A DNA stretch of 38,662 nucleotides, taken from IMG/VR virus record IMGVR_UViG_2541047816_000001; one strand, given 5' to 3'. The notes beneath the pieces are model-generated. The model had not been told where the DNA came from, did no database searches, and saw only the letters and a list, made by a program, of their open reading frames with translations. Both the position numbers and the translations under genes were made by a program. Origin of the DNA: a virus. Its lineage: Duplodnaviria; Heunggongvirae; Uroviricota; Caudoviricetes. Numbering within the stretch: the stretch's first letter is position 1; every line of letters starts with the position of its first letter. This document shows positions 9,974-38,662 of this stretch, in pieces.

Positions 9974-10528
9974 TTGCTTCTTATGAATCATGTAATGTTA
10001 GATATAGAAACATTGGATGTTGAAAAAACAGCTTATATCCTTTCAGTTGGTGCGGCTTTTTTCGTGCCGGAGACTGGCGAGATTGGTCCGGGTTTCTATC
10101 AAGTTATTTCGCTTGATCATGAACAAGCAGGCAGAACCATTGCCCCCTCTACTGTAAAGTGGTGGATGAATCAAAGTACTGAAGCTAAAAACGAAAATTT
10201 TGATGGCACTAAGGACCTTTTAGAGGTTCTGAATGAATTTGTGGCATTTATTCTTCATAATCGTACTGGCCGAGTAAAAGTGTGGGGAAACGGGAAAGAG
10301 TTTGACTGCACGATCATGCATCATGCCCTGTTACAGGCGGGTCTGGATTGCCCATGGTCATTCAGAGATACTCTTGACGTTAGAACCATCTTAGCACTTG
10401 GTGAAAGCAAAGGAATTTTTTCTCATGCTGATAAAAATTTCACTGGCATTAGGCACACAGCATTCGATGATGTTTTATTTCAGATCGCACAGGTTTCTCA
10501 CATCTATATGAATTTAAATAAAAAATAA
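9974..10528 (+). CDS. DEDDh-family (DnaQ-like) 3'-5' exonuclease domain protein
   Basis: Motifs in order: DIETLD (Exo I), VWGNGKEFD (Exo II region), HTAFDD (Exo III His/Asp). True start probably ATG 9983 or 9995 rather than TTG 9974. Confidence 0.6.
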   Translation: MLLMNHVMLDIETLDVEKTAYILSVGAAFFVPETGEIGPGFYQVISLDHEQAGRTIAPSTVKWWMNQSTEAKNENFDGTKDLLEVLNEFVAFILHNRTGRVKVWGNGKEFDCTIMHHALLQAGLDCPWSFRDTLDVRTILALGESKGIFSHADKNFTGIRHTAFDDVLFQIAQVSHIYMNLNKK

Positions 10529-10543
10529 ATATAGGACTTAGCT

Positions 10544-11455
10544 ATGGATTGCTTAGATGTAACCTATTGGACTGAGCTAGATGTTTTCGCACAGTATCCT
10601 GTTGGTGCTCGCTCTAAGGCATTGGTTATTTCCCCTGATGTTGCCCCCCATGGTATCAAAGCATCGTGGCCGTATCTTTTTAAGAGAAGTATTAAAAAAT
10701 ACCCAGATCAATTTTGGTGTGAGATCGTTGCCTACAGGATTGGATTGCAGCTTGGTTTTAATGTCCCCAAAGCAGTTCCTTCGTTAAAGACTAATGATTT
10801 GGGGCATACGTTTTGCGGGGCCCTCATTGAGTGGTTTCATCATAAAGATTATGAGAAATTTGCTCCCGCTGGTGATTACTTTGTTCGAAGAGATCCAAAT
10901 TTTGATCGTGAGAAAGGAGCTAAGCATTCCATTGAAGGGCTGAGGATTATCGCGAAAGCTCTTAAAGTTGACTATGTTGAGTGGTTGGAGAATATGGCTC
11001 TCTTTGACGCAGTAATAGGTAATACAGATAGACATCAAGAAAACTGGGGGTTTATCTTCTCCCCTTTAACCAGCGAGTGTCAGCTTGCACCATTTTTCGA
11101 TAATGGTACGAGCTTATGCTACGAACGCTTTCCGGAACATGTTGCTGATTGGACCGATCATAGACTCAGGGAGCATGTTAGCCGGGGAAAGCATCATTTG
11201 CGTAAAACTCTGGGCAAAGATGAGTATCAGAGATTAGGTCATTTAGAGTTAATCAAAGAACTTTGTGATAAAAAAGAAGAATTAAAACAGCGGGTAGCTG
11301 AAAGACTGGCTCGTTTGAACCATGACTTTTGGGACTCAACTTTTGCGGAGTTGACGGAAATAAACTGCCCTGTTCCGCTGACTAGAGAACGTGCTGCATG
11401 GATTGTTCGTGTAACAAACATGCGTATTGAACTGATTAAAGGTGTTACTTCATGA
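10544..11455 (+). CDS. HipA-family Ser/Thr kinase core lacking the HipA N-subdomain (HipT-like)
   Basis: Three HipA kinase motifs in correct order and spacing: G21-ARSK (cf. HipA GAQEK), IGNTDRHQEN at 158-167 (catalytic loop, cf. HipA GATDGHAKN), FFDNGTS at 184-190 (Mg-binding, cf. HipA FYDI); 303 aa. Confidence 0.6.
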   Translation: MDCLDVTYWTELDVFAQYPVGARSKALVISPDVAPHGIKASWPYLFKRSIKKYPDQFWCEIVAYRIGLQLGFNVPKAVPSLKTNDLGHTFCGALIEWFHHKDYEKFAPAGDYFVRRDPNFDREKGAKHSIEGLRIIAKALKVDYVEWLENMALFDAVIGNTDRHQENWGFIFSPLTSECQLAPFFDNGTSLCYERFPEHVADWTDHRLREHVSRGKHHLRKTLGKDEYQRLGHLELIKELCDKKEELKQRVAERLARLNHDFWDSTFAELTEINCPVPLTRERAAWIVRVTNMRIELIKGVTS

Positions 11456-12156
11456 CTATCTTAATAGAAAAAATTCCCATGCCAAGTAGGCTCTTACTGA
11501 CATGGCAACCGACCGACGGCGGCTCTCGCTATGTCGTTGGTGAACTTCTTCAAGATGAGTCTGAAGGCTACGAGTTTAATTATCTTACGGATAGCAAAGA
11601 TTTTGCTAAAGCTGGGGATAAAGGCTTTCACGGTTTTCCTGCTTTTGACATAAAAGTTACGACTCATCGCAAAGACGTTATGCAAACCTTTTCAAGAAGG
11701 TTACCCTCCAGGAAAAGAGAAGATTTTGCCGATTACTTGCTGACGTTTCGTCTTCCTGCTGATTTTAGAGAGAATGACTTCGTTTTGCTCGCTTGTACTG
11801 GCGGAAAAGTGGCTAGTGATGGTTTTTATTTTGTCCCAGACTTGTCTTCTATTCGGCCACCTTTTGATTATGTCATGGAGGTCGCCGGAACGAGACACAT
11901 GATTAAGGAAGGGCGTCTAGCTCTTGACGAGATATCAATTGGTGATGAAGTCATATTGCGCAATGAAGATACCAATACTGTTGATCCGCTGGCCATATTA
12001 GTAACGAAAAACGACAATCATCTAGGGTATGTCAACAAGGCATTGTGCGCCGCATTACGAGATCTTAGTAAAAACCATGATATCAGTGGAGTGGTCGTAC
12101 GTAAAAATGGCTCTTCGGATAGGCCTTTGATTTATGCAAAAGTATCTGTTAGATGA
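11452..12156 (+). CDS. HipS-like N-domain fused to C-terminal HIRAN domain
   Basis: N-terminus LLTW...VGEL...F.Y pattern parallels the HipA N-subdomain (LVTW..VGEL..FKY); C-terminus GDEVILRNEDTNTVDPLAILVTKNDNHLGYVNKALCAALRDL fits the HIRAN signature; start overlaps kinase stop by 4 nt (ATGA). Confidence 0.5.
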   Translation: MTILIEKIPMPSRLLLTWQPTDGGSRYVVGELLQDESEGYEFNYLTDSKDFAKAGDKGFHGFPAFDIKVTTHRKDVMQTFSRRLPSRKREDFADYLLTFRLPADFRENDFVLLACTGGKVASDGFYFVPDLSSIRPPFDYVMEVAGTRHMIKEGRLALDEISIGDEVILRNEDTNTVDPLAILVTKNDNHLGYVNKALCAALRDLSKNHDISGVVVRKNGSSDRPLIYAKVSVR

Positions 12157-14734: not shown

Positions 14735-16497
14735 AAAATCTCCACAATATTGCTGGTATTGGCGGACTCGCCCTGCAGCGGTTCGTTAAACAGTGCGTGC
14801 ATTGTTGCCCAGGCCAGATCGGCATGGCTGGCTTCTTCGCTGCGGCTGGCTTCATAGGTCGGGCGGTTGCCACTGGCAGTGGTAGCGCGACGGATTGCCA
14901 TAAATGACTGCGCAATGTCGGTGTGCCCGGCGTCAAACTCCAGGCGGCGGTGGCTGATAATGTCGTAGGCCTTGAGTACCAGGGCGTTTTTAACGTTGGG
15001 GTTGTAGACAAACTCCCGGACGGCAGGAAAAAACGCTTTCACGTTCTCGTAAACCCCGTGACCGACGCCGGTCGAGTCGATGCCGATATAGGTCACGTTA
15101 TACTGTTCGGTCAGTTTTTTGATGGCGTCAGCCTGGGCGCGAAAGTCCATTCCGCGCCACTGGTGACGCTCAAGAATGCGGAACTTGCCGCCCGGCACGG
15201 CTGGCGGAGCCACCACCACGCATCCGGCGCTGTCGCCGTTTTGCGTACCTTTTGCCGGGTCATAACCGATCCACACTTCGCGCCAGCCAAACGGGCGCAG
15301 CGCCAGTGCATGAAAGTCGGTCCAGACTTCCCAGCTGTCCACCATGCACGCCTGCAGCTCGCTGAGCGGGAACACGGACGCGAGATCGTCCACGAACTCA
15401 CACATCAGCAGGTTCTGGTATTCGTCCGGGCTGTACTCCATGCGCAACTGGTCGAGGTCGAACAGGTTACAGCCGCCGCGCACCGCATCTTCCACAGTGA
15501 CTATCTGGCGGTACTGCCCGTCTGCGCACAGCAGGCCGGGGGCCAGATTGCTGTGGGACAGGTCGATGTCCACCTTATCGGCTTTGTTGCGCCCTCGGTT
15601 GAACAGCGCACCGGACCAGAACGGATAAGCACTGTGTGTCAGGCTGGATGGCGTGGAAAAATAGGTTTGTCGCCATTTTTTGTGAATAGCCATACCGGAA
15701 GCCACTTTGCGCAGCTCCTGGAATTTCGGTATCCAGAAATATTCATCCAGATACAGGTTGCCGTGGTAACTCTGGGCCGTGCGGGCATTGGTGCCGAGGA
15801 AGTACAGCGTGGCCCCGTTAGGAAGCACCATCGGATCGCCTTTCAGCTCCACCTCCACTTCTTTGGCGAAGTCGATGATGTACTGCTTGAAGACGTGGGC
15901 CTGAGCCTTGCTGGCGGAAAGGAAAATCTGGTTACGCCCGGTTAGCAGGGCGTCAATCAGGGCTTCACGGGCAAAATAGAAGGTCGCGCCGATCTGGCGT
16001 GACTTCAGCAGGTTGCGGATGCGGTTGGTTTTTCCGGCTTCCCACCAGTGGCGCTGGTAGTTGAACATGGAGGAATGGAAGATTTCTTCCAGCTTCTCAA
16101 TCTGTTCATCGGTGAAAACGTTCTTTTCCGGCTGACGGCGCGGGCCTTTGTTGCGGTTGGCGACGTTAGGGTTTAAGTCGGCTTCGTTGCCGCCATTGTT
16201 AAACTTGCCGATCCGCGCATGGCGCTCCGACTGGCGCGCCAGCAGGTCAATCTCTTTGAAATCTTTCCCTTCTTTGTGCTCCTTCATAATGAGCTGGCAG
16301 TAGCGTGCGGCGGTGGTGAGCTGCATCTGATCCAGCGGCCCATAGTCACCCCACTTGTCGCGTTTTTTCCAGCTGTGAACGGTTGCAACTTTCTCGCCCA
16401 GCATTTCAGCAATGCGGGCTACACGGTATCCCTGAAAGTACAGCAGCATGGCCTGCCGACGGGGATCGAGATCTGCGGGTGTCAGTGTGGTGTTCAT
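14731..16497 (-). CDS. P: Terminase large subunit, ATPase (P2 gpP-like)
   Basis: 588 aa; overlaps Q start; divergent from the O-N-M-L operon as in P2. Confidence 0.8.
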   Translation of the reverse strand: MNTTLTPADLDPRRQAMLLYFQGYRVARIAEMLGEKVATVHSWKKRDKWGDYGPLDQMQLTTAARYCQLIMKEHKEGKDFKEIDLLARQSERHARIGKFNNGGNEADLNPNVANRNKGPRRQPEKNVFTDEQIEKLEEIFHSSMFNYQRHWWEAGKTNRIRNLLKSRQIGATFYFAREALIDALLTGRNQIFLSASKAQAHVFKQYIIDFAKEVEVELKGDPMVLPNGATLYFLGTNARTAQSYHGNLYLDEYFWIPKFQELRKVASGMAIHKKWRQTYFSTPSSLTHSAYPFWSGALFNRGRNKADKVDIDLSHSNLAPGLLCADGQYRQIVTVEDAVRGGCNLFDLDQLRMEYSPDEYQNLLMCEFVDDLASVFPLSELQACMVDSWEVWTDFHALALRPFGWREVWIGYDPAKGTQNGDSAGCVVVAPPAVPGGKFRILERHQWRGMDFRAQADAIKKLTEQYNVTYIGIDSTGVGHGVYENVKAFFPAVREFVYNPNVKNALVLKAYDIISHRRLEFDAGHTDIAQSFMAIRRATTASGNRPTYEASRSEEASHADLAWATMHALFNEPLQGESANTSNIVEIF

Positions 16498-16543
16498 GGC
16501 ACAAACCTACAGCCTTGAATGAAGGCTTTCCCCGCCTGCGGTT

Positions 16544-16561
16544 TGTGTGGTTGTCGGTACA
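16544..16561. promoter_or_regulatory. Ogr-type late activator box TGT-N12-ACA in divergent P/O late promoter region
   Basis: TGTgtggttgtcggtACA seen between divergently transcribed P and O genes. Confidence 0.45.
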
Positions 16562-16639
16562 AATACCGCGCATTGTTTCACTGCCCCCATCACCGCAACC
16601 ATAAGGCTCCAGTAAGTTTTTTCTAACGGAGCACGGCTC

Positions 16640-17473
16640 ATGACAGTGAAAGCAAAGCGTTTTCGCATCGGGGTGGAAGGTGCCACCACCGACGGACGCG
16701 AAATCCAGCGTGAATGGCTGGAACAGATGGCAGCCAGCTACAACCCGGCGGTGTATACCGCTCTGATTAACCTTGAGCACATCAAGTCTTATCTGCCGGA
16801 CAGCACCTTTAACCGCTACGGCAAGGTGACGGCGCTGTTTGCTGAAGAAATCACGGAAGGTCCGCTGGCGGGCAAGATGGCGCTGTATGCCGACGTTGAG
16901 CCAACGGAATCCCTGGTGGAGCTGGTGAAAAAAGGCCAGAAATTATTCACCTCTATGGAAGTCAGCCCGAAGTTTGCTGATACGGGCAAAGCCTACCTGG
17001 TCGGCCTGGCTGCCACTGATGACCCTGCCAGTCTGGGCACTGAAATGCTGACATTCAGCGCCAGTGCGGCCCATAACCCGCTGGCAAACCGCAAGCAGAA
17101 TCCTGCCAATCTCTTTACCGCTGCAGAGGAAACGGTGATCGAACTGGAAGAAATCCAGGATGACAAACCGTCCCTGTTTGCCCGTGTCACGGCGCTGTTC
17201 ACCAAAAAAGAGCAGTCCGATGACGCCCGATTCTCTGATGTGCATAAGGCCGTGGAGCTGGTCGCCACTGAGCAGCAGAACCTGAGCGCACGCACCGAAA
17301 AATCCCTGTCTGAGCAGGAAGAACGCCTGTCTGAGCTGGAGATTGCTCTGCAGGCACAGCAGACCGCCTTTAACGAACTGGTGGACAAGCTGAGCCATGA
17401 AGACAGCCGCCAGGACTACCGCCAGCGTGCAACAGGCGGTAACGCCCCCGCTGACACTCTGACCAATTGCTGA
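16640..17473 (+). CDS. O: Capsid scaffolding protein (P2 gpO-like)
   Basis: 277 aa, acidic and coiled-coil-rich, precedes major capsid gene. Confidence 0.75.
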   Translation: MTVKAKRFRIGVEGATTDGREIQREWLEQMAASYNPAVYTALINLEHIKSYLPDSTFNRYGKVTALFAEEITEGPLAGKMALYADVEPTESLVELVKKGQKLFTSMEVSPKFADTGKAYLVGLAATDDPASLGTEMLTFSASAAHNPLANRKQNPANLFTAAEETVIELEEIQDDKPSLFARVTALFTKKEQSDDARFSDVHKAVELVATEQQNLSARTEKSLSEQEERLSELEIALQAQQTAFNELVDKLSHEDSRQDYRQRATGGNAPADTLTNC

Positions 17474-17489
17474 TGGAGCACAAAACCTG

Positions 17490-18545
17490 ATGAAGAAGAA
17501 TACCCGCTTTGCTTTTAACGCTTACCTGCAGCAGCTGGCGCGTCTGAACGGTGTGGCAGTTGAAGAACTGTCCAGCAAGTTTACTGTAGAGCCGTCTGTG
17601 CAGCAGACGCTGGAAGACCAGATCCAGCAGTCCGCCGCATTCCTGACGCTGATTAACGTCACGCCAGTGACTGAGCAGTCTGGTCAGTTGCTGGGGCTGG
17701 GTGTTGGCAGCACCATTGCCGGAACCACTGATACCACCGCAAAAGAGCGTGAGCCTGTCGATCCGACGCTGATGGTCGATGTGGAATATAAATGCGAGCA
17801 GACCAACTTTGACACGGTGCTGACCTACGCGAAGCTGGACCTGTGGGCGAAGTTTCAGGATTTCCAGGTGCGTATCCGTGACGCCATCGTGAAACGTCAG
17901 GCACTGGACCGCATCATGATCGGCTTTAACGGCGTGAAGCGTGCGAAAACCTCCAACCGCAGCGAAAACCCGCTGCTGCAGGATGTGAATAAAGGCTGGC
18001 TACAGAAAATCCGTGAGGATGCACCGGATCACGTCATGGGCAGCACCACCACGGGCGGTGAAACCACACCGGGCGCGGTGAAAGTCGGTAAAGGTGGCGA
18101 ATATGCCAACCTGGACGCCGTGGTGATGGATGCGGTCAATGAGCTTATCGACGTGGTCTACCAGGACGATGACGATCTGGTGGTGATTTGCGGTCGTGAA
18201 CTGTTGTCTGATAAGTATTTCCCGCTGGTCAACAAAGAGCAGGAAAACAGTGAAAAACTGGCTGCCGATATGATCATCAGCCAGAAACGCATGGGTGGCC
18301 TGCAGGCCGTGCGTGCGCCGTTCTTCCCGCCGAATGCGCTGCTGATCACCCGTCTGGATAACCTGTCCATCTACTGGCAGGAAGACACCCGCCGCCGTTC
18401 AGTTATCGACAACCCGAAACGTGACCGGATTGAAAACTTTGAATCCGTTAACGAAGCCTATGTGGTTGAGGACTACCGCTGCGCAGCACTGGTGGAAAAC
18501 ATCCAGATTGGCGACTTCAGCGTCGCCGTAGAAGCCGGAGCATAA
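17490..18545 (+). CDS. N: Major capsid protein (P2 gpN-like)
   Basis: 351 aa, position and size as P2 N. Confidence 0.8.
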   Translation: MKKNTRFAFNAYLQQLARLNGVAVEELSSKFTVEPSVQQTLEDQIQQSAAFLTLINVTPVTEQSGQLLGLGVGSTIAGTTDTTAKEREPVDPTLMVDVEYKCEQTNFDTVLTYAKLDLWAKFQDFQVRIRDAIVKRQALDRIMIGFNGVKRAKTSNRSENPLLQDVNKGWLQKIREDAPDHVMGSTTTGGETTPGAVKVGKGGEYANLDAVVMDAVNELIDVVYQDDDDLVVICGRELLSDKYFPLVNKEQENSEKLAADMIISQKRMGGLQAVRAPFFPPNALLITRLDNLSIYWQEDTRRRSVIDNPKRDRIENFESVNEAYVVEDYRCAALVENIQIGDFSVAVEAGA

Positions 18546-18548
18546 ACC

Positions 18549-19199
18549 ATGAGCCTGAGTCCCGCACGGCAGCATCGCCTGCGCGTTCAGGCTGAACAGG
18601 CCGCCCGTGAGGGCGGCAGTGTTCGCCACGCGTCGGGCTATGACCTGATGCTGCTGCAACTGGCGGAAGACCGCCGCCGTCTCAAGGGCGTTCAGTCCAC
18701 GGTGAAAAAAGCGGAAATCAAGGTGGAGCTGCTGCCGAAATATGCCGCCTGGGCGGAGGGCGTCCTGGCTGCCGGAGGCGCTCAACAGGATGACGTGCTG
18801 ATGTACGTGATGCTGTGGCGCATTGATGCCGGAGATTATGCCGGGGCGCTGGAGATTGGGCGTCATGCCCTGCGTCATGGCTGGGTGATGCCGCTGGGTA
18901 ACCGCAACGTGCAGACCGTGCTGGCAGAGGAAATGGCAGATGCAGCGCAGAGCGCAATGCTTGCCGCCACCGGCTTTGATGCCGATCTGTTGCTGCAGAC
19001 GCTGGAGCTGACAGACGGTCTGGATATGCCGGACCAGTCACGGGCGCGTCTGCATAAAGCGATTGGCGCTGTCCTGAGTGAAAGCAATCCGGCTTCCGCC
19101 CTTAATCATCTCAACCATGCGTTACAGCTCGATCCCCGCTGTGGCGTGAAAAAAGACAAACAGCAGCTGGAGCGCAGACTGCGCAATGACAGCCGCTGA
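18549..19199 (+). CDS. M: Terminase small subunit (P2 gpM-like)
   Basis: 216 aa following the capsid gene, P2 order O-N-M. Confidence 0.75.
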   Translation: MSLSPARQHRLRVQAEQAAREGGSVRHASGYDLMLLQLAEDRRRLKGVQSTVKKAEIKVELLPKYAAWAEGVLAAGGAQQDDVLMYVMLWRIDAGDYAGALEIGRHALRHGWVMPLGNRNVQTVLAEEMADAAQSAMLAATGFDADLLLQTLELTDGLDMPDQSRARLHKAIGAVLSESNPASALNHLNHALQLDPRCGVKKDKQQLERRLRNDSR

Positions 19200-19294
19200 C
19201 AGAACGTGCCCCCGCGCACGGGCGGCACGGGGTGGCGAAAGGCACAGCCACATCAAAACCCCGTCCACCGCCCTTTATTTCAGGAGAAAGCAGC

Positions 19295-19759
19295 ATGAAG
19301 TTTGTTGCGCCAGAACAGGCATCGGAACAGGCGGAAATCATCAGAAATACGCCGTTCTGGCCTGATGTGGACTTGTCGGAGTTTCGCAGTGTCATGCGCA
19401 CTGACGGCACGGTGACGCAGCCGCGTTTAAAGCAGGTTGCGCTGTCGGCAATTTCGGAGGTCAACGCAGAGCTGTATGAGTTTCGCAGACGTCAGCAGAT
19501 GCTGGGGTATGCGTCGCTGGCTGAGGTTCCGGCGGAACAGCTGGACGGCAAAAGTGAGCGCATTCATCACTATTTCAACGCGGTTTACTGCTGGGCACGC
19601 GCCATGCTCAATGAGCGTTATCAGGACTATGACGCCACGGCGTCCGGTGTGAAGCGGGGCGAGGAACAGGCGGAAGCAAGCGGTGATTTGTGGCGTGACG
19701 CCCGCTGGGCCATCAGCCGGGTACAGGATGCGCCGCACTGCACAGTGGAGCTTATCTGA
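19295..19759 (+). CDS. L: Head completion/stabilisation protein (P2 gpL-like)
   Basis: ATG 19295 preceded by CAGGAGAAAG; 154 aa; P2 order. Confidence 0.7.
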   Translation: MKFVAPEQASEQAEIIRNTPFWPDVDLSEFRSVMRTDGTVTQPRLKQVALSAISEVNAELYEFRRRQQMLGYASLAEVPAEQLDGKSERIHHYFNAVYCWARAMLNERYQDYDATASGVKRGEEQAEASGDLWRDARWAISRVQDAPHCTVELI

Positions 19760-19962
19760 TGAAAGTGCGTGCGCATCAGTATGACACGGTGGACGCGCTT
19801 TGCTGGCGTCATTACGGGCGCACGCAGGGTGTCACGGAGCAGGTACTGAAGGCAAATCCGGGGCTTGCCGAATACGGCCCCTTTTTACCTCACGGGCTGC
19901 AGGTGGAGCTGCCGGACATTCCGACAACCACCACCGTGCAGACCGTCCAGCTATGGGACTGA
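19759..19962 (+). CDS. X: Tail protein X-like
   Basis: 67 aa; position between L and the lysis genes as in P2. Confidence 0.6.
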   Translation: MKVRAHQYDTVDALCWRHYGRTQGVTEQVLKANPGLAEYGPFLPHGLQVELPDIPTTTTVQTVQLWD

Positions 19963-19965
19963 ATT

Positions 19966-20181
19966 ATGACGCTTGAGCGAATCAGCGCCTTTATCACGTA
20001 TTGCATCGCCGTCGTGCTGGCCTGGCTGGGCGATTTGTCCATCAAGGATGCCTCAACGCTGGGCGGCCTGATGATTGGTGTGCTGATGCTGGCTATCAAC
20101 TGGTACTACAAACACAAAGCCTACCAGCTTCTGCGCGACGGGCAGATCTCGCGGGAGGACTATGAATCCATCAGTCGTTAA
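19966..20181 (+). CDS. Holin (small, with hydrophobic helices)
   Basis: 71 aa with hydrophobic segments and charged C-terminus, immediately upstream of the endolysin. Confidence 0.6.
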   Translation: MTLERISAFITYCIAVVLAWLGDLSIKDASTLGGLMIGVLMLAINWYYKHKAYQLLRDGQISREDYESISR

Positions 20182-20674
20182 ACGCTGCCTTGTCGGGGTC
20201 GTGCTGGCTATTGCTGCCACGCTGCCGGGTTTTCAGCAGCTTCACACCTCCGTGGAGGGACTGAAACTGATTGCCGATTACGAAGGCTGTCGTCTGCAGC
20301 CGTATCAGTGCAGCGCGGGTGTCTGGACCGACGGCATTGGTAATACATCGGGCGTCATTCCCGGCAAAACAATCACGGAACGACAGGCAGCAGAAGGGCT
20401 GATCTCCAACGTGCTGCGTGTGGAGCGGGCACTGGAAAGGTGTGTGAAGCAACAGCCACCACAGAAGGTGTATGACGCTACGGTGTCGTTTGCCTTCAAC
20501 GTGGGGACGGGCAATGCCTGTAGTTCCACGCTGGTGAAATTGCTCAATCAGCGGCGCTGGGCGGATGGGTGCCGACAGTTGCCGCGCTGGGTTTATGTAA
20601 AAGGTGTGTTTAATCAGGGGCTGGATAACCGCCGTGCGCGGGAGATGGCCTGGTGTTTACAGGGAGCAAACTGA
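20162..20674 (+). CDS. Endolysin, T4-lysozyme-like muramidase with N-terminal signal-anchor-release (SAR) type hydrophobic segment
   Basis: Catalytic E-x8-D-x5-T pattern (EGLKLIADYEGCRLQPYQCSAGVWTDGIGNT); N-terminal CLVGVVLAIAATLPGF hydrophobic stretch. Confidence 0.8.
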   Translation: MNPSVVKRCLVGVVLAIAATLPGFQQLHTSVEGLKLIADYEGCRLQPYQCSAGVWTDGIGNTSGVIPGKTITERQAAEGLISNVLRVERALERCVKQQPPQKVYDATVSFAFNVGTGNACSSTLVKLLNQRRWADGCRQLPRWVYVKGVFNQGLDNRRAREMAWCLQGAN

Positions 20675-20675
20675 A

Positions 20676-21053
20676 ATGAAAAAGAAATTAATCAGCGGAC
20701 TGTTTCTGATGTTATGGATGGCGCTGTTAATCGCAGCAATGGTGTATCCGCAGGGGATCTTTCCGGTACTGGCAGCGTCCGGCGTTTGGGTAGCCTGTTT
20801 GCTGACATGGGCGGTAATTCCGGTAGCACTGGCTGCGTTAATTCAGAATGGCCCGCTCTGGCAGGAGTTAAGGGCATCTTTGCTGAAGACAATTACCCGA
20901 AAAGAAAACGTATTTATCAGTTGGGTGATGCGATTGCTGATTGTTGTAAGTCTCGCATGGACGGGGTGGGCTATTACCCTGGTCTTTTATCTACTGACCG
21001 TTATTGCCTTCTGGATCACCCGTAATCAGATGGCGCAACAGGTAGCAGCATGA
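20676..21053 (+). CDS. LysA-like membrane protein of lysis cassette
   Basis: 125 aa from ATG 20676 (GGGAG RBS), multiple hydrophobic helices; position as P2 lysA. Confidence 0.5.
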   Translation: MKKKLISGLFLMLWMALLIAAMVYPQGIFPVLAASGVWVACLLTWAVIPVALAALIQNGPLWQELRASLLKTITRKENVFISWVMRLLIVVSLAWTGWAITLVFYLLTVIAFWITRNQMAQQVAA

Positions 21054-21478
21054 ACCGGTTGCTGCTGGTTGTGCTGGCGTTATTACTGGCGGCGCTGGGC
21101 TGGCAGACGTGGCGGCTGGCTGATGCCAGCCAGACCATCAGCACGCAGGCAAACGAGCTGCAGAGCAAAAGCCAGGCACTGGCAAAGAGCAACAGCCAGC
21201 TTATCAGCCTGTCCATTCTGAATGAAACCAATAACCGGGAGCAGGCGCGGCTCTATGCCGAAGCAGAACAGACCAGCGCACAGCTGAGACAACGACAACG
21301 CCGGATCGAGGAACTGAAACGTGAGAACGAGGATTTACGCCACTGGGCTGATACTCCTTTGCCTGCTGACATTATCCGGCTGCGGGAACGTCCGGTACTC
21401 ACCGGAGGTGCAGCTTACCGTCAGTGGTTGTCCGAGAGTGACGCCGTGTCGGCTGGAGCAGGCAGCACCGCGCACTAA
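21050..21478 (+). CDS. LysB-like i-spanin (Rz-like)
   Basis: N-terminal TM segment followed by Gln/Ala-rich coiled coil; position as P2 lysB. Confidence 0.6.
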   Translation: MNRLLLVVLALLLAALGWQTWRLADASQTISTQANELQSKSQALAKSNSQLISLSILNETNNREQARLYAEAEQTSAQLRQRQRRIEELKRENEDLRHWADTPLPADIIRLRERPVLTGGAAYRQWLSESDAVSAGAGSTAH

Positions 21479-21611
21479 CGGTGATCTGAATGCGTTGCTG
21501 GATGAAACGGAGGCCGCCTGGGCGATCTGTGCAGACAAAGTGGACATGATTATTGCGTGTCAGGAGCGAAACAGTGAACAAACCACAATCCCTGCGCTAC
21601 GCCCTCAATAA
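21321..21611 (+). CDS. LysC-like o-spanin lipoprotein (Rz1-like), starting inside lysB in another frame
   Basis: GTG start; signal peptide with lipobox LTLSGC; overlaps the lysB 3' end as in P2. Confidence 0.5.
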   Translation: MRTRIYATGLILLCLLTLSGCGNVRYSPEVQLTVSGCPRVTPCRLEQAAPRTNGDLNALLDETEAAWAICADKVDMIIACQERNSEQTTIPALRPQ

Positions 21612-22005
21612 AGCGGTGCCTTATGTCCGAAATAACCCGGACAAACTGCATCTGTTTGTGGATAACGGTTCGCTGGTTGCCACGGGGGCCAGCTCCATGT
21701 CATGGGAGTACCGCTACACCCTGAACGTGGTGATTGAGGATTTCAGCGGCGACCAGAATCTGCTGATGGCCCCGGTTTTGCTGTGGCTGCGTGATAACCA
21801 GCCCGATGCCATCAATAACCCGGCGTTACGGGAAAAGCTATTCACCTTTGAGGTGGATATTCTGCGCAACGATGTCTGTGATATCAGCCTCAACCTGCAA
21901 CTGACGGAGCGTGTGCTGGTCAGCACTGACGGCAGTGTGTCGAGCGTTGAAGCTATAGCGGAACCTGATGAACCTGAAGAAATGTGGACGGTGAAACGTG
22001 GCTGA
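21574..22005 (+). CDS. R: Tail completion protein (P2 gpR-like)
   Basis: GTG 21574 with AGGAG RBS 7 nt upstream; about 143 aa; P2 order. Confidence 0.65.
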   Translation: MNKPQSLRYALNKAVPYVRNNPDKLHLFVDNGSLVATGASSMSWEYRYTLNVVIEDFSGDQNLLMAPVLLWLRDNQPDAINNPALREKLFTFEVDILRNDVCDISLNLQLTERVLVSTDGSVSSVEAIAEPDEPEEMWTVKRG

Positions 22006-22444
22006 ACTGCAGAAAGTGGACGACTGGCTGAGTGCCTTGCTGGCGAATCTGGAGCCAGCCGCAAGAAGCCGCATGATGCGCCAGCTGGCGCAGGAACTAC
22101 GCCGGACACAGCAGCAAAATATCAGAATGCAGCGCAATCCAGATGGCAGCAGTTATGAACCGCGACGGGTAACAGCACGCAGTAAAAAAGGCCGTATCAA
22201 ACGTCAGATGTTTGCAAAGCTGCGCACCACAAAATACCTGAAAACTTCCGCCAGCGCCGACTCTGCCAGCGTGCAGTTTGAAGGCAAGGTACAGCGCATT
22301 GCCCGTGTTCATCACTACGGCTTACGTGATCGCGTCAGCCGCAAAGGACCGGAGGTCCGTTACGCAGAGCGTCGCCTTCTGGGTGTAAATGATGATGTTG
22401 AGGCAATGACCCGCGACATGATTCTGCAATGGCTGGCGGGGTGA
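21998..22444 (+). CDS. S: Tail completion protein (P2 gpS-like)
   Basis: 148 aa; GTG start overlapping R stop; P2 order. Confidence 0.65.
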   Translation: MAELQKVDDWLSALLANLEPAARSRMMRQLAQELRRTQQQNIRMQRNPDGSSYEPRRVTARSKKGRIKRQMFAKLRTTKYLKTSASADSASVQFEGKVQRIARVHHYGLRDRVSRKGPEVRYAERRLLGVNDDVEAMTRDMILQWLAG

Positions 22445-22448
22445 TTTT

Positions 22449-22466
22449 TGTATCAGCACTGATACA
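22449..22466 (+). promoter_or_regulatory. Ogr-type late activator box TGT-N12-ACA upstream of V
   Basis: TGTatcagcactgatACA about 45 nt upstream of the V start. Confidence 0.45.
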
Positions 22467-22512
22467 AGTTGCAGCACTGCCGCCTTTCTTCCCCTGATGG
22501 CAACCTTTCCCT

Positions 22513-23091
22513 ATGAACGCACAATTAACCGAAATCATGCGCCTTATCACCAACCTGATCCGCACTGGGGTAGTCACCGAAGTGGACAGGACAAACTGGC
22601 TTTGCCGGGTGAAAACGGGCGACCTTGAAACCAACTGGATCAGCTGGCTGACGCTGCGTGCCGGGAATGCCCGGACATGGTGGCGACCATCGGAAGGTGA
22701 GCAGGTGGTGCTGCTGAGTATGGGCGGTAATCTGGAAACAGCTTTTGCGCTGCCCGCCATCTATTCGAATCAGTTCGCACCACCGTCGACGTCGGCGGAC
22801 GCCTGCGTGACAGAACATCCTGACGGTGGCTGGTTTGAATACGAACCTGCCACCGGGCGCTGGTATGTCAGGGGCATCAAATCCATGGTCATTGAGGCTG
22901 CCGATAACATCACCCTGAAAACCAGTGAGTTTGTGCTGGAGGCTGAGTGCACGCGTATTAACAGCGAAGTGGTGATCAATGGTGGCGTTACTCAGGGCGG
23001 CGGAGCGATGAGTTCTAACGGGATCGTGGTTGATGCGCATCAGCATACTGGCGTCCTGAAAGGCGGCGATACAACCGGAGGCCCGGTATGA
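22513..23091 (+). CDS. V: Baseplate spike/assembly protein (P2 gpV-like)
   Basis: 192 aa; first gene of V-W-J-I-H cluster. Confidence 0.75.
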   Translation: MNAQLTEIMRLITNLIRTGVVTEVDRTNWLCRVKTGDLETNWISWLTLRAGNARTWWRPSEGEQVVLLSMGGNLETAFALPAIYSNQFAPPSTSADACVTEHPDGGWFEYEPATGRWYVRGIKSMVIEAADNITLKTSEFVLEAECTRINSEVVINGGVTQGGGAMSSNGIVVDAHQHTGVLKGGDTTGGPV

Positions 23092-34400: not shown

Positions 34401-35497
34401 ATTTCAGCTCTGAACTGCTTAACAAAGGCAACAAAACTCCCGCATTCAGCATCAGTATTGAGGGCAGGGATATCACCACTGTGCTGGATAACCGCCTGAT
34501 GAGTTTGACGCTGACGGATAACCGGGGCTTTGAAGCGGACCAGCTTGATCTGGAGCTGGATGACGCTGACGGAAAAATCGTGCTGCCGCGCCGTGGTGCG
34601 GTTATTACGCTGGCGCTGGGCTGGAAGGGGCAGCCGCTTTTCCCGAAAGGGGCATTCACAGTGGACGAGATTGAACACACTGGCGCACCGGACCGCCTGA
34701 CTATCCGGGCGCGAAGTGCTGATTTTCGGGAAACGCTGAATACCCGCCGTGAAAAATCGTGGCATAAGACCACCGTTGGGGAAGTGGTGAAGGAAATAGC
34801 CGCGCGGCACAAGCTGAAGATGGCACTGGGTAAAGACCTGTCGGATAAGCCCGTGGAGCATATAGACCAGACTAATGAGAGTGACGGCAGTTTTCTGATG
34901 CGGCTGGCGCGACAGTACGGTGCCATCGCGTCGGTGAAAAATGGCAATCTGTTATTCATCCGGCAGGGGCAGGGCAAAAGCGCCACTGGTAAACCTCTGC
35001 CAGTGATCACTATCACACGCAAGGACGGCGACAGTCACCGATTTACCCTGGCAGATCGCGGAGCCTACACGGGCGTAATTGCCAGCTGGTTGCATACCCG
35101 CGAACCTGCGAAGAAAGAAAGCACCACGGTGAAGCGTAAGCGCAGAACTAAGAAGCAGAAGAAAGAGCCAGAAGCGAAGCAGGGCGATTACCTGGTGGGT
35201 ACGGATGAAAACGTGCTGGTACTTAATCGCACTTATGCCAACCGGAGCAACGCCGAACGAGCGGCGAAAATGCAGTGGGAACGCCTGCAACGCGGCGTTG
35301 CGTCATTTTCGCTACAACTGGCAGAAGGGCGGGCAGATCTCTACACGGAAATGCCTGTGAAGGTCAGTGGTTTTAAACAGCCGATAGATGATGCGGAATG
35401 GACCATTACGACTCTGACGCATACCGTCAGCCCGGATAACGGTTTTACGACCAGTTTGGAGCTTGAAGTGAGGATTGATGATTTCGAAATGGAATGA
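34397..35497 (+). CDS. D: Tail protein / late control protein (P2 gpD-like)
   Basis: 366 aa; last late structural gene before ogr. Confidence 0.75.
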   Translation: MNFSSELLNKGNKTPAFSISIEGRDITTVLDNRLMSLTLTDNRGFEADQLDLELDDADGKIVLPRRGAVITLALGWKGQPLFPKGAFTVDEIEHTGAPDRLTIRARSADFRETLNTRREKSWHKTTVGEVVKEIAARHKLKMALGKDLSDKPVEHIDQTNESDGSFLMRLARQYGAIASVKNGNLLFIRQGQGKSATGKPLPVITITRKDGDSHRFTLADRGAYTGVIASWLHTREPAKKESTTVKRKRRTKKQKKEPEAKQGDYLVGTDENVLVLNRTYANRSNAERAAKMQWERLQRGVASFSLQLAEGRADLYTEMPVKVSGFKQPIDDAEWTITTLTHTVSPDNGFTTSLELEVRIDDFEME

Positions 35498-35587
35498 TTC
35501 TTCGCAATGGAGAACTTTTAAGTTTGCAAAATGGAATAATGCGGTATCATTATTGTGAATTTAGCAAAAATGGGGAGAACTCGAAAA

Positions 35588-35806
35588 ATGATGATTTGCC
35601 CACTGTGTGGAAGTGCCGCCCATACTCGCAGCAGTTTTCAGGTATCTTCATTGACCAAAGAGCGTTACAACCAGTGCCAGAATATTAACTGCAGCCATAC
35701 TTTTGTAACCCATGAAACTTTTGTTCGTTCGATTGCAACGCCAAAAGAGTCAAATCCGGTTCAGCCGCATCCAATGAAATCAGGACAGGTGGCGCTCTCT
35801 CTTTGA
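35588..35806 (+). CDS. ogr: Late gene transcriptional activator, Ogr-type zinc finger
   Basis: 72 aa MMICPLCGSAAHTRSS...CQNINCSHTF with Cys4 pattern, similar to P2 Ogr as I recall it; ATG 35588 with GGGGAGA RBS. Confidence 0.8.
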   Translation: MMICPLCGSAAHTRSSFQVSSLTKERYNQCQNINCSHTFVTHETFVRSIATPKESNPVQPHPMKSGQVALSL

Positions 35807-35882
35807 CGCTGCCGCCATTTTGTCGCCATCGTTAAAAAACAGTGCTTCTAACGTCATGATTTTAATCGGCATAAATTTCAGA

Positions 35883-35929
35883 CAACAAAAAACCCATCAA
35901 CCTTGAACCGAAATGGTGGGGTTGATGGG
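35883..35929 (-). terminator. Rho-independent terminator of ybjL (minus strand)
   Basis: CCCATCAACC/GGTTGATGGG hairpin followed on the minus strand by a T-run (TTTTTTGTTG). Confidence 0.55.
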
Positions 35930-36042
35930 CTCCACAAAATGGGGACATCAAAGAAAAGCAGTGGCACTAATTAAGACTGATGCCCTGCGGAAAAGTTCTG
36001 CGGTTGTGCAAAAAAAATTTCATTTTCAGGGCAACTTCAGTT

Positions 36043-37728: not shown

Positions 37729-37997
37729 GGAGGCTAACTTCTTGTTTACTAGTAAGCTGTTGAAAGAAATGGTAATTTACGATAATGTTTTTTACCAGAA
37801 TTCAGGGCGCAGATTCATTCAGCGCACCTAAACGATAGTAAAGTAACAATATATTTTACTAGTGTAATCACATTAGGTATCAACGGCTATATGAATTGCG
37901 TTGGCCTATATTAGCATGGAATGCGAAGCGGCTTTATCTTACTGAACGCCACACTGGCGAAAAATGTGTTCGATAGACGCAGTGTCAGGAGGAACGA

Positions 37998-38375
37998 GTG
38001 AAACATAAACAACGTTGGGCGGGGGCAATCTGCTGTTTTGTCCTCTTCATTGTGGTGTGTCTTTTTCTGGCGACGCACATGAAAGGCGCTTTTCGGGCTG
38101 CCGGGCATCCTGAAATCGGTTTGCTATTTTTCATTCTTCCTGGTGCAGTTGCCAGCTTCTTTTCACATCGTAGAGAAGTCCTGAAACCTCTGTTTGGCGC
38201 AATGCTGGCGGCACCCTGTTCGATGCTCATTATGCGGCTGTTTTTTTCACCGACGCGCTCATTCTGGCAAGAGCTGGCATGGTTATTAAGTGCGGTGTTC
38301 TGGTGTGCGCTGGGGGCATTGTGTTTCTTATTTATCAGTAGTTTGTTTAAACCACAGCACAGAAAAAATCAATAA
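37998..38375 (+). CDS. ybjM: Inner membrane protein YbjM
   Basis: 125-aa hydrophobic protein; conserved neighbour between ybjL and grxA in E. coli. Confidence 0.75.
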   Translation: MKHKQRWAGAICCFVLFIVVCLFLATHMKGAFRAAGHPEIGLLFFILPGAVASFFSHRREVLKPLFGAMLAAPCSMLIMRLFFSPTRSFWQELAWLLSAVFWCALGALCFLFISSLFKPQHRKNQ

Positions 38376-38394
38376 AGCCCTCAACGCGAGGGCT
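38376..38394. terminator. Hairpin between convergent ybjM and grxA (possible bidirectional terminator)
   Basis: AGCCCTC-AACGC-GAGGGCT stem-loop right after the ybjM stop; flanking T-runs weak. Confidence 0.35.
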
Positions 38395-38404
38395 TGTCAG
38401 ACGG

Positions 38405-38662
38405 TCAGGCGTCCAGATTCTCTTTCGCCCATGCAGCAAAATCGGTATAGCCGCCGATATGTTGCTGATCGACAAAAATCTGCGGCACGGTTTCTACGGG
38501 TTTACCTGCCTTTTGTTGTAGATCTTCTTTAGTGATCCCTTCCGCACGAATATCTACATACTGATACTGGAAATCATCGCGTTCATTGCTCAATTTCTCA
38601 GCCAGATCTTTTGCACGCACACAGTAAGGGCAACCCGGACGACCAAAAATAACGGTTTGCAT
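38405..38662 (-). CDS. grxA: Glutaredoxin 1
   Basis: 85 aa with CPYC active site (MQTVIFGRPGCPYCVRAKDL...); start codon at the window edge. Confidence 0.9.
   Translation of the reverse strand: MQTVIFGRPGCPYCVRAKDLAEKLSNERDDFQYQYVDIRAEGITKEDLQQKAGKPVETVPQIFVDQQHIGGYTDFAAWAKENLDA

What the first reader, a model, noticed from the sequence alone, without database searches (positions are those of the whole stretch)
19966..21611. Lysis cassette with SAR-type endolysin and embedded spanin pair
Seen: the endolysin has a T4-lysozyme-like catalytic triad pattern plus an N-terminal hydrophobic signal-anchor-like segment; it is preceded by a small holin (consistent with pinholin logic) and followed by a membrane protein, an Rz-like coiled-coil protein, and an Rz1-like lipoprotein (lipobox LTLSGC) that starts inside the Rz-like gene in another frame.
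Basis: partly seen in the sequence, partly recalled or inferred. Interest (0 to 1): 0.2.

Follow-up and report, generated by a model that had tools for sequence, protein, structure and literature searches.

The report
Ordinary P2-type prophage lysis cassette
This is the standard five-gene cell-bursting module of a P2-like prophage in the E. coli chromosome; it is already annotated in public genomes and present in about one in five complete E. coli genomes, so it is real but ordinary.

Summary
Window 19966-21611 holds five tightly packed + strand genes between tail genes X and R:
- a 71-aa two-TMD holin (HP1 family);
- a 170-aa GH24 lysozyme;
- a 125-aa four-TMD LysA homologue;
- the i-spanin LysB;
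- the lipoprotein o-spanin LysC (lipobox LSGC).

The lysozyme has an N-terminal hydrophobic segment. Its residues C9, E41, C43, C50 and T56 align with the regulatory and catalytic residues of the phage P1 SAR endolysin Lyz.

The stretch is 100% identical to E. coli FDAARGOS_1283, where RefSeq already names all five genes. It is 97-98% identical to phages 500465-1, vB_EcoM-813R9 and the KP12_3 clone. A 2023 paper already describes that copy as a P2-type cassette with a P1-Lyz-like SAR endolysin and overlapped spanins.

The spanin pair is "overlapped" (P2 type), not "embedded": lysC runs 133 nt past the lysB stop and 38 nt into R. The "pinholin" label is unproven: the holin falls below the phage-21 S family cut-off and its TMD1 is fairly hydrophobic.

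Non-cleavage and release of the SAR segment are inferred from homology and a conserved N-terminal cysteine. They are not shown.

Verdict: already known, low interest.

The parts
19966..20181 (+). Class II (two-TMD) holin of the HP1 holin family, 71 aa. TMD1 is about residues 6-22 and TMD2 about residues 31-48, followed by a charged C-terminal tail. There is no dual start: an in-frame TGA lies 6 nt upstream.
   Evidence: Pfam PF16080 scores 36.7 bits (cut-off 28.8); PF04971 (P21 S) scores 23.2, below its cut-off of 26. phrog_20 holin E 6e-26. Hydropathy. RefSeq name 'HP1 family phage holin' on identical DNA.
20162..20674 (+). GH24 muramidase of the P1 Lyz type, a putative SAR endolysin of 170 aa. 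It overlaps the holin gene by 20 nt.
   Evidence: PF00959 E 3e-39. The best solved relative is P1 Lyz 1XJT, E 6e-26. 36% identity to P1 Lyz over 172 aa, E 1e-32.
20186..20233 (+). N-terminal hydrophobic (SAR-like) segment C9-F24, CLVGVVLAIAATLPGF, preceded by K7 R8. Cys9 aligns with P1 Lyz Cys13.
   Evidence: Hydropathy and composition. Alignment to P1 Lyz. The segment and C9 are invariant in 22 relatives. An N-terminal Cys is kept in 26 of 31 divergent homologues that have the caging pair.
20282..20329 (+). Catalytic and regulatory block E41-G-C43-x6-C50-x5-T56. It corresponds to P1 Lyz E42, C44, C51 and T57.
   Evidence: Read from the sequence. Alignments.
20676..21053 (+). LysA homologue, 125 aa with about four TMDs. 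It is the putative lysis-timing regulator (antiholin). Its stop overlaps the lysB start (ATGA).
   Evidence: phrog_162 E 1e-43, the same family as P2 LysA (E 2e-67). NCBIfam NF038378 scores 122.9 bits. Hydropathy.
21050..21478 (+). LysB, an Rz-like i-spanin of 142 aa with an N-terminal TMD (about residues 4-18) and a periplasmic domain.
   Evidence: TIGR03495 equivalog scores 170.7 bits (cut-off 92.75). phrog_89 E 1e-45. Alignment with P2 LysB.
21321..21611 (+). LysC, an Rz1-like o-spanin lipoprotein of 96 aa with a GTG start. It lies in the +1 frame of lysB, shares 158 nt with it, extends 133 nt beyond it, and overlaps gene R by 38 nt. This is the overlapped architecture.
   Evidence: NF038368 equivalog scores 122.9 bits (cut-off 27). 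PF23793 E 2e-15. 41% identity to P2 LysC over its full length. The frame is conserved in 9 relatives.
21372..21383 (+). Lipobox L18-S19-G20-C21 of LysC. Gly at +2 predicts outer-membrane sorting.
   Evidence: Read from the sequence. Conserved as L-[SC]-[SA]-G-C in all relatives including P2.

Best explanation
This is the late-operon lysis module of an intact P2-like (Peduoviridae) prophage in the E. coli chromosome. It has the P2 gene order X | holin - endolysin - lysA - lysB - lysC | R.

Compared with P2, the first two genes are swapped. P2's class I holin Y and its lambda-R-like endolysin K are replaced by a two-TMD HP1-family holin and a GH24 lysozyme of the phage P1 Lyz type.

Proposed mechanism (inferred from homologues, not shown here):
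1. The lysozyme is exported by Sec and stays tethered to the inner membrane by its short, weakly hydrophobic N-terminal segment (C9-F24). While tethered, its catalytic Cys50 is locked in a disulfide with Cys43.
2. The holin accumulates in the inner membrane. At a programmed time it triggers and collapses the membrane potential.
3. The SAR segment then leaves the bilayer. Cys9 attacks the Cys43-Cys50 disulfide, freeing Cys50 and activating the E41/C50/T56 muramidase, which degrades the murein.
4. The LysB (inner membrane) - LysC (outer-membrane lipoprotein) spanin complex then disrupts the outer membrane.
5. The four-TMD LysA homologue tunes lysis timing, as reported for P2 lysA.
For: Shown by tools:
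- Family assignments for all five proteins are well above curated cut-offs.
- The gene order and the lysB/lysC/R overlaps match the annotated P2 record.
- P2 Y and K have no detectable similarity to the holin and endolysin here and fall in different PHROGs. LysA, LysB, LysC, X and R are homologous to their P2 counterparts.
- The closest solved relative of the endolysin is P1 Lyz (1XJT/1XJU, E 6e-26). All five key residues align: C9/E41/C43/C50/T56 with P1 C13/E42/C44/C51/T57.
- The N-terminal segment and C9 are invariant in 22 relatives of 79-97% identity.
- Among representatives of <=50%-identity clusters that carry E-x-C-x6-C-x5-T, 26 of 31 keep a Cys at the N-terminal edge of a hydrophobic segment. 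Four of the five exceptions (P0145, P0157, P0160, P0170) start inside the hydrophobic segment, which looks like a truncated start call (my reading). Binomial p < 1e-5 against a generous 45% background that I assumed. This argues that the segment is kept in the working enzyme.
- All ORFs are intact, and the DNA is 97-98% identical to that of sequenced phages.

From the literature:
- The 97%-identical KP12.peg.316-320 copy is described as a P2 cassette with a Lyz-like SAR endolysin and overlapped spanins. Its purified lysozyme gave clearing in spot tests on K. pneumoniae (PMC9902359).
- P2 lysis gene roles (PMC3091744).
- Spanin and SAR paradigms (PMC6139136; PMC9025707).
Against: - No experiment on this sequence shows export, non-cleavage, membrane release or disulfide isomerisation.
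- The hydrophobic segment is short: 13 residues up to P22, 16 up to F24. It contains A-I-A|A, so a simple -3/-1 rule cannot exclude signal-peptidase cleavage.
- My AlphaFold model was poor (mean pLDDT 64, N-terminus <50), so it gives no geometry for the cysteines.
- The KP12 paper contradicts itself on whether lytic activity was verified.
- The antiholin role of LysA is an old assignment from P2 genetics. Here LysA sits beside an unrelated holin, it is missing in phage Cartapus, and in Fels-2 it is replaced by a different family.
Confidence: 0.85

Rival explanations
1. The N-terminal segment of the lysozyme is a cleavable Sec signal peptide. The enzyme would then be secreted as a soluble periplasmic protein and controlled in some other way, not by signal-arrest-release.
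For: The hydrophobic core is short (C9-L21, 13 residues), follows a K-R n-region, and contains A16-I17-A18|A19. The simple -3/-1 rule allows cleavage after A16, A18, A19 or T20.
Against: The hydrophobicity continues past the putative site (ATLPGF). [quoted passage not shown] Cleavage would discard Cys9. That residue aligns with P1 Cys13, is invariant in close relatives, and is kept in 26 of 31 distant homologues that carry the caging pair.
Confidence: 0.1
2. The holin is a canonical large-hole class II holin rather than a pinholin. It would trigger the SAR lysozyme simply by depolarising the membrane.
For: It belongs to the HP1 holin family. It is below the cut-off for the phage 21 S family, 23.2 against 26 bits. 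P1 Lyz works with the canonical holins LydA and LydC as well as with the pinholin LydD (PMC9025707).
Against: Genes for SAR endolysins typically adjoin pinholin genes (PMC9025707). The holin has a weak but real match to the P21 S family, E 7e-5. The SEN8 record annotates the 79%-identical homologue as 'pin holin'. No experiment is cited in either direction.
Confidence: 0.4
3. The cassette is a decaying remnant of a cryptic prophage and no longer causes lysis.
For: Public gene catalogues hold many frameshifted versions, including 276-296-aa endolysin-LysA read-throughs and a 235-aa holin-endolysin read-through.
Against: In this window all five ORFs are intact, with Shine-Dalgarno sequences and coupled starts. 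The whole prophage, from integrase to D/ogr, appears complete. The cassette is 97-98% identical to records deposited as phages. The frameshifted allele has no exact match in 5426 complete RefSeq E. coli genomes.
Confidence: 0.05

Closest known systems
Identical or near-identical annotated copies: the E. coli FDAARGOS_1283 prophage (NZ_CP070162.1), Escherichia phage 500465-1 (NC_049342, Wadgaonvirus), vB_EcoM-813R9, Klebsiella 'KP12' clone KP12_3 (peg.316-320) and Klebsiella phage 4LV2017
   Same: 100% identity over 2801 nt to FDAARGOS_1283 and 97-98% to the phage records. The five genes are the same and are already named holin / lysozyme / DNZ54_00345 (LysA) / LysB / LysC. The KP12 copy was published as a P2-type cassette with a Lyz-like SAR endolysin and overlapped spanins (PMC9902359).
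   Different: Nothing of substance. Only the annotated LysC start differs between records, giving 39, 56, 57, 82 or 96 aa.
Phage P2 lysis module Y-K-lysA-lysB-lysC
   Same: Same position between X and R. Same order, same overlapped lysB/lysC/R arrangement, and a 96-aa LysC in both. LysC is 41% identical, LysB about 32-33%, and LysA falls in the same PHROG.
   Different: P2 Y is a class I three-TMD holin (phrog_175). P2 K is a lambda-R-like soluble endolysin (PMC6139136). Neither has significant similarity to the holin or lysozyme here.
Phage P1 SAR endolysin Lyz (PDB 1XJT/1XJU)
   Same: GH24 fold family. The E-x8-C-x5-T triad has Cys in place of Asp. The caging Cys sits two residues after the Glu, and there is a Cys in the N-terminal hydrophobic segment. 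36% identity, E 1e-32.
   Different: The hydrophobic segment here is shorter, about 16 residues against about 20, and it ends in P-G-F. The Cys sits at the segment's N-terminal edge, directly after K-R, rather than inside it. An 11-residue insertion present in P1 Lyz is absent. The genomic context is different.
Phage 21 pinholin S21 / SAR endolysin R21
   Same: A small two-TMD holin lies immediately upstream of a GH24 lysozyme that has an N-terminal hydrophobic segment. R21 (3HDE/3HDF) is a detectable homologue, E 4e-17.
   Different: R21 matches only from residue 40 onward. From prior knowledge, R21 is regulated by refolding of its SAR domain rather than by disulfide caging. The holin here is below the S21 family cut-off, has no dual-start motif, and has a more hydrophobic TMD1. 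The phage 21 Rz/Rz1 spanins are embedded, not overlapped (PMC6139136).
Fels-2 and SEN8 (Felsduovirus) lysis cassettes
   Same: The holin is 79% identical, the lysozyme 90%, LysB 75-77% and LysC 77-78%. The Fels-2 record notes similarity to P1 Lyz, and the SEN8 record notes 'pin holin' and spanins.
   Different: The lysA slot differs. It is only 40% identical in SEN8. In Fels-2 it holds a different family (phrog_7356), split into two ORFs.

Membership tests
GH24 phage lysozyme (Pfam PF00959) | Profile match above the gathering cut-off | tested here: met
   134.6 bits against a cut-off of 22.3, residues 39-161.
GH24 phage lysozyme (Pfam PF00959) | Catalytic triad Glu-x8-Asp/Cys-x5-Thr | tested here: met
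   E41-x8-C50-x5-T56 reads from the sequence and aligns with P1 Lyz E42/C51/T57.
SAR endolysin, P1 Lyz (disulfide-caged) type | N-terminal weakly hydrophobic segment after a basic n-region, continuous with the catalytic domain | tested here: met
   K7 R8 are followed by C9-F24. The best 19-residue window has mean KD 1.75. My approximate (from-memory) Hessa-scale sum for it is +5.9, against -3.2 to -0.5 for the LysA TMDs.
SAR endolysin, P1 Lyz (disulfide-caged) type | Three regulatory or catalytic cysteines: one in the SAR segment, one caging Cys at Glu+2, and the catalytic Cys | tested here: met
   C9, C43 and C50 align with P1 C13, C44 and C51. C9 and C50 are invariant and C43 is conserved in at least 90% of 22 relatives. 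The N-terminal Cys co-occurs with the caging pair in 26 of 31 distant homologues.
SAR endolysin, P1 Lyz (disulfide-caged) type | The segment is not cleaved by signal peptidase | tested here: inconclusive
   The -3/-1 rule permits sites at A16, A18, A19 and T20. Conservation of C9 argues against cleavage. SignalP and Phobius were not available.
SAR endolysin, P1 Lyz (disulfide-caged) type | Sec-dependent export, membrane tethering, and release with activation on depolarisation | not testable with these tools
   Requires fractionation and energy-poison experiments.
Pinholin (phage 21 S21-68 type) | Small holin with two TMDs and a basic cytoplasmic C-terminus | tested here: met
   Hydrophobic windows at 8-26 and 26-44, then KHK...R...R.
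Pinholin (phage 21 S21-68 type) | Membership of the P21 holin S family (PF04971) | tested here: not met
   23.2 bits, below the gathering cut-off of 26.
Pinholin (phage 21 S21-68 type) | TMD1 is a weakly hydrophobic, SAR-like helix that can leave the membrane | tested here: inconclusive
Pinholin (phage 21 S21-68 type) | Forms nanometre-scale holes that cannot release a soluble endolysin | not testable with these tools
   Needs a lambda R complementation test.
HP1 holin family (PF16080) | Profile match above the gathering cut-off | tested here: met
   36.7 bits against 28.8. RefSeq names the identical protein 'HP1 family phage holin'.
P2 LysA family | Profile-level homology to P2 LysA, and the same slot between the endolysin gene and lysB | tested here: met
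   phrog_162 gives E 1e-43 for the window protein and 2e-67 for P2 LysA. Pairwise BLAST is only marginal, E 0.014. Hydropathy gives four hydrophobic windows here (two of them overlapping by one residue), read as about four TMDs, and four in P2 LysA.
P2 LysA family | Antiholin or lysis-timing function | not testable with these tools
   The role is assigned from P2 genetics (PMC3091744). It needs a knockout and lysis curves.
Two-component spanin LysB/LysC (P2 type) | i-spanin: N-terminal TMD plus a periplasmic domain, and an equivalog HMM match | tested here: met
   TIGR03495 scores 170.7 bits against 92.75. The TMD is LLLVVLALLLAALGW.
Two-component spanin LysB/LysC (P2 type) | o-spanin: lipoprotein signal with a lipobox, a residue other than Asp at +2, and an equivalog HMM match | tested here: met
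   MRTRIYATGLILLCLLTL-SGC, then G at +2. NF038368 scores 122.9 bits against 27. LipoP was not available.
Spanin gene architecture: embedded (lambda Rz/Rz1) | The o-spanin gene lies entirely within the i-spanin gene | tested here: not met
   lysC ends at 21611, 133 nt beyond the lysB stop at 21478.
Spanin gene architecture: overlapped (P2 lysB/lysC) | The o-spanin gene starts inside the i-spanin gene in the +1 frame and ends beyond it | tested here: met
   158 nt are shared and 133 nt lie beyond. The same geometry holds in 8 relatives; in P2 the figures are 146 and 145 nt. The definition is in PMC6139136.

The most novel reading that the evidence does not exclude
The most novel reading left open concerns LysA. 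A homologue of the supposed P2 antiholin is kept next to a holin and an endolysin unrelated to P2's Y and K. The same slot is empty in phage Cartapus and holds a different family in Fels-2. LysA may therefore not be a holin-specific antiholin at all. It could be a generic, exchangeable membrane modulator of lysis timing, or of SAR-endolysin release. A lesser point is that the short (about 16-residue) SAR segment, with its Cys fixed at the cytoplasmic edge, may define a distinct sub-type of disulfide-caged SAR endolysin.
Probability: 0.2. Interest if true: 0.3.

Novelty: already known. Interest (0 to 1): 0.06.

Why it matters
It matters little for discovery. The cassette is a textbook example of phage mosaicism: a P2 spanin/LysA backbone carrying a swapped-in holin and a P1-type SAR lysozyme. 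It is already annotated and published.

It has some practical value:
- It shows that o-spanin starts are still annotated inconsistently in public records. The RefSeq copy starts at a CTG that removes most of the signal peptide.
- PHROG-derived labels call LysA an 'endolysin'.
- This very common E. coli prophage lysozyme would be a convenient natural system for testing disulfide-caged SAR activation and the unresolved role of LysA.

Tried and rejected
1. AlphaFold2 on the lysozyme, using a 22-sequence but shallow (79-97% identity) alignment. Mean pLDDT was 64 and the N-terminus was below 50. That is too poor to judge cysteine geometry, so no fold search was run.

2. Direct BLASTP against P2 Y and K. 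There is no meaningful similarity, so 'divergent P2 Y/K' was rejected in favour of module replacement.

3. P1 LydD and LydE against the window proteins. No similarity.

4. Promoter and terminator scan of 16400-22800. No + strand sigma-70-like promoter was found and promoter-like sites were at shuffle level (3 against 2.9). There is only a weak terminator-like hairpin at the end of gene S. This fits a position inside the Ogr-dependent late operon and shows nothing special.

5. Endolysin-LysA 'fusion' proteins in the gene catalogues. I traced the main junction to loss of one G in the GGG run near window 20640-20642. I then searched that allele in 5426 complete RefSeq E. coli genomes. The best hits are all the intact allele (99.2%, one gap) and none is exact. 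I treat the fusions as frameshifted or low-quality copies, not as a programmed fusion.

6. A simple -3/-1 signal-peptidase rule. It cannot discriminate a SAR segment from a signal peptide.

The P1 Lyz sequence was later confirmed from the P1 record.
Full report
**What is there**

The mechanical ORF list and the sequence show five + strand genes packed between the tail genes X and R. X is at 19759-19962 (Pfam Phage_tail_X) and R at 21574-22005 (Pfam P2_Phage_GpR).

- Holin, 19966-20181, 71 aa. It starts 3 nt after the X stop, and an in-frame TGA 6 nt upstream excludes a longer, dual-start form.
- Endolysin, 20162-20674, 170 aa. Its ATG lies 20 nt inside the holin gene, behind GGGAGGA.
- Membrane protein, 20676-21053, 125 aa. 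Its ATG is 1 nt after the endolysin stop, behind GGGAG.
- LysB, 21050-21478, 142 aa, joined to the previous gene by an ATGA stop/start overlap.
- LysC, 21321-21611, 96 aa. It has a GTG start behind GAGGA and lies in the +1 frame of lysB.

The junction sequences are printed.

**Family assignments**

All assignments are far above chance.

- The holin matches the HP1 holin family: PF16080 at 36.7 bits against a gathering cut-off of 28.8, and phrog_20 at E 6e-26. It matches the phage 21 S family only below cut-off, 23.2 against 26.
- The endolysin matches PF00959 at E 3e-39.
- The membrane protein has no hit in the local Pfam copy. It matches phrog_162 (E 1e-43) and NCBIfam NF038378, 'DNZ54_00345 family', at 122.9 bits against 40.
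- LysB matches the equivalog TIGR03495 at 170.7 bits against 92.75.
- LysC matches the equivalog NF038368 'P2_Rz1' at 122.9 bits against 27, and Pfam LysC at E 2e-15.

**Where it comes from**

The right end of the window carries ybjL, ybjM and grxA. It is 100% identical to E. coli FDAARGOS_1283. The 2801 nt around the cassette are identical to that chromosome with no mismatch.

RefSeq already annotates the five genes there as 'HP1 family phage holin', 'lysozyme', 'DNZ54_00345 family protein', 'Rz-like lysis system protein LysB' and 'Rz1-like lysis system protein LysC'. The LysC note reads 'substantially overlapping although not fully embedded'.

The rest of the window is a whole P2-like prophage. 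It runs from the integrase at 1-1053, through a 186-type CI repressor, portal, terminase and capsid genes, to the tail genes and D/ogr.

The cassette is 97-98% identical to Escherichia phage 500465-1 (Peduoviridae, Wadgaonvirus), vB_EcoM-813R9, Klebsiella phage 4LV2017 and the clone 'KP12_3'. It is 77-83% identical to SEN8 and Fels-2. The endolysin/lysA junction is found in about 1000 of 5426 complete E. coli genomes.

**Relation to P2**

The annotated P2 record has the same layout: X, Y, K, lysA, lysB, lysC, R. Its lysC also encodes 96 aa, starts inside lysB and ends inside R.

Protein comparisons:

| Protein | Identity to P2 counterpart |
|---|---|
| X | 61% |
| R | 52-54% |
| LysC | 41% over full length (E 2e-24) |
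| LysB | about 32-33% |

LysA is only marginal by BLAST, but both proteins fall in phrog_162: P2 LysA at E 2e-67 and the window protein at E 1e-43. P2 Y (phrog_175, three TMDs) and P2 K have no significant similarity to the holin and lysozyme here.

So the cassette is a P2 backbone in which the holin/endolysin pair has been replaced.

**The spanins**

In nine relatives, including P2, the lysC frame stays open for 95-96 codons. The following features are also conserved:
- the start (GTG in this clade, ATG in P2);
- the upstream GAGGA in eight of the nine enterobacterial copies, including the window (GAAGA in vB_EcoM-813R9; P2 differs);
- the lipobox, L-[SC]-[SA]-G-C;
- four periplasmic cysteines (C37, C43, C70, C80);
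- a TNGDL motif.

lysC shares 158 nt with lysB, runs 133 nt beyond its stop, and overlaps R by 38 nt. In the spanin nomenclature this is the 'overlapped' class typified by P2. It is not the 'embedded' class of lambda (PMC6139136; PMC3091744). The title of the finding is wrong on that one word, although its text ('starts inside the Rz-like gene in another frame') is right.

Public records disagree on the LysC start. They give products of 39, 56, 57, 82 or 96 aa. The RefSeq start is a CTG at window 21363, which leaves only six residues before the lipid-modified Cys. The GTG at 21321 is the start supported by the P2 alignment.

**The endolysin**

Its closest solved relative is the phage P1 SAR endolysin Lyz: 1XJT at E 6e-26 and 1XJU at E 1e-24. 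The phage 21 enzyme R21 (3HDE/3HDF) follows at E 4e-17.

I aligned it to the P1 Lyz sequence taken from the P1 genome record. Identity is 36% over 172 residues (E 1e-32). C9, E41, C43, C50 and T56 fall on P1 C13, E42, C44, C51 and T57.

From established knowledge (Xu et al. 2005 Science, cited in PMC9025707), these are the residues of the P1 mechanism. The catalytic Cys51 is caged in a disulfide with Cys44 while the enzyme is tethered. It is freed by Cys13 once the SAR domain leaves the membrane.

The hydrophobic segment here is C9-F24 (CLVGVVLAIAATLPGF), after K7 R8. It is shorter and much less favourable for membrane insertion than the TMDs of LysA (the Hessa values were from memory and are indicative only).

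**SAR segment or cleavable signal peptide?**

A bare -3/-1 rule cannot exclude cleavage, for example at AIA|A 18/19.

An evolutionary argument points the other way. In 22 relatives of 79-97% identity, the segment and C9 are invariant. I also examined the best 150 hits of a search of 1.84 billion cluster representatives. Among them, 31 have a readable N-terminus and the P1-type E-x-C-x6-C-x5-T block. Of these 31, 26 keep a Cys at the N-terminal edge of the hydrophobic segment. Four of the five exceptions (P0145, P0157, P0160, P0170) start inside the hydrophobic segment, which looks like a truncated start call; that is my reading. The binomial p is below 1e-5 even against a 45% background that I assumed.

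A cysteine in a peptide that is cut off and discarded would not be conserved together with the caging pair. So the segment is most likely retained, as in P1 Lyz.

This is inference, not proof. My own AlphaFold model was too poor to add anything (pLDDT 64). The KP12 paper reports a high-confidence model of the 97%-identical protein that superposes on 1XJT with TM-score 0.83. It also reports spot-test clearing by the purified protein, although its discussion contradicts itself on that verification (PMC9902359).

**The holin**

It has two hydrophobic segments and a basic C-terminal tail, so it is a class II holin of the HP1 family.

'Pinholin' is plausible. Genes for SAR endolysins usually adjoin pinholin genes, and the SEN8 record says 'pin holin'. 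But it is not established:
- the protein is below the cut-off of the S21 family;
- it has no dual start;
- its TMD1 is considerably more hydrophobic than the S21 TMD1;
- P1 Lyz is known to work with canonical holins as well as with a pinholin (PMC9025707).

I put the pinholin reading at roughly even odds.

**LysA**

The 125-aa protein has about four TMDs, like P2 LysA (PMC3091744).

It is the variable slot of the cassette. It is 98% identical in close relatives but only about 40% in SEN8 and the Klebsiella phi13.x phages, whose neighbouring lysis proteins (holin, lysozyme, LysB, LysC) are 68-90% identical. It is absent from phage Cartapus. In Fels-2 it is replaced by a different family (phrog_7356), split into two ORFs.

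Its retention beside a holin unrelated to P2 Y is the only mildly open question here.

**Verdict**

The object is already annotated in RefSeq, described in the literature, and extremely common. Novelty: already known. Interest: low.

Noticed in passing
window 20604-21053 (junction near 20640-20642): Among the 120 closest database homologues of the lysozyme, about 33 entries are 276-296-aa read-throughs of endolysin into LysA (precomputed Pfam PF00959+PF28015). The recurrent junction is ...NRRARRWPGVYREQTEMKKK. It corresponds to loss of one G from the GGG run, which moves reading into the lysA frame. Other junctions arise from other 1-nt deletions. A 235-aa holin-endolysin read-through also exists. 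None of the 5426 complete RefSeq E. coli genomes has the main fused allele exactly, so these are probably frameshifted or low-quality copies.
   Followed up: partly
window 21321 vs 21363: RefSeq starts LysC at a CTG (21363), leaving only 'LLTLSG' before the lipobox Cys. Other GenBank records annotate fragments of 39, 56 and 57 aa. The GTG at 21321, with GAGGA upstream, gives MRTRIYATGLILLCLLTLSGC, which matches P2 LysC (MRTKIFAAG...).
   Followed up: yes
window 20676-21053, and L003 2010-2435: PHROG-derived annotation labels the LysA family (phrog_162) as 'endolysin', and this label has propagated into RefSeq phage records, including P2 itself. The protein is a small four-TMD membrane protein with no enzymatic domain.
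   Followed up: partly
window 9974-12156: There is cargo downstream of the replication gene. It consists of an Rv2179c-like 3'-5' exoribonuclease (9974-10528), then a HipA_C-like kinase (10544-11455) and a HIRAN-domain protein (11452-12156). The last two match the two components of the PADLOC candidate defence system PDC-M03 (A and B, each E 4e-36).
   Followed up: no
window 1144-2849 (- strand): Two ORFs of 226 and 342 aa lie between the integrase and the CI repressor. Neither has a Pfam or PADLOC hit. They may be further prophage cargo of unknown function.
   Followed up: no
window 2865-3743 (- strand): The 186-type CI repressor ORF is 292 aa as listed and gives two matched stretches to the Phage_CI_repr HTH domain. 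That suggests either a duplicated HTH domain or an over-extended mechanical ORF start.
   Followed up: no
window 35400-38662: The window ends in host chromosome: ybjL (aspartate:alanine antiporter, 36043-37728, - strand), ybjM (37998-38375) and grxA. The prophage is therefore integrated next to ybjL. The flank is 100% identical to E. coli FDAARGOS_1283 and GmF052.
   Followed up: partly
L007 (Escherichia phage Cartapus) 1309; L005 (Fels-2) 1311-1686: The lysA slot is dispensable or exchangeable. Cartapus goes straight from the endolysin gene to lysB. Fels-2 carries a different family there (phrog_7356), split into two ORFs.
   Followed up: partly
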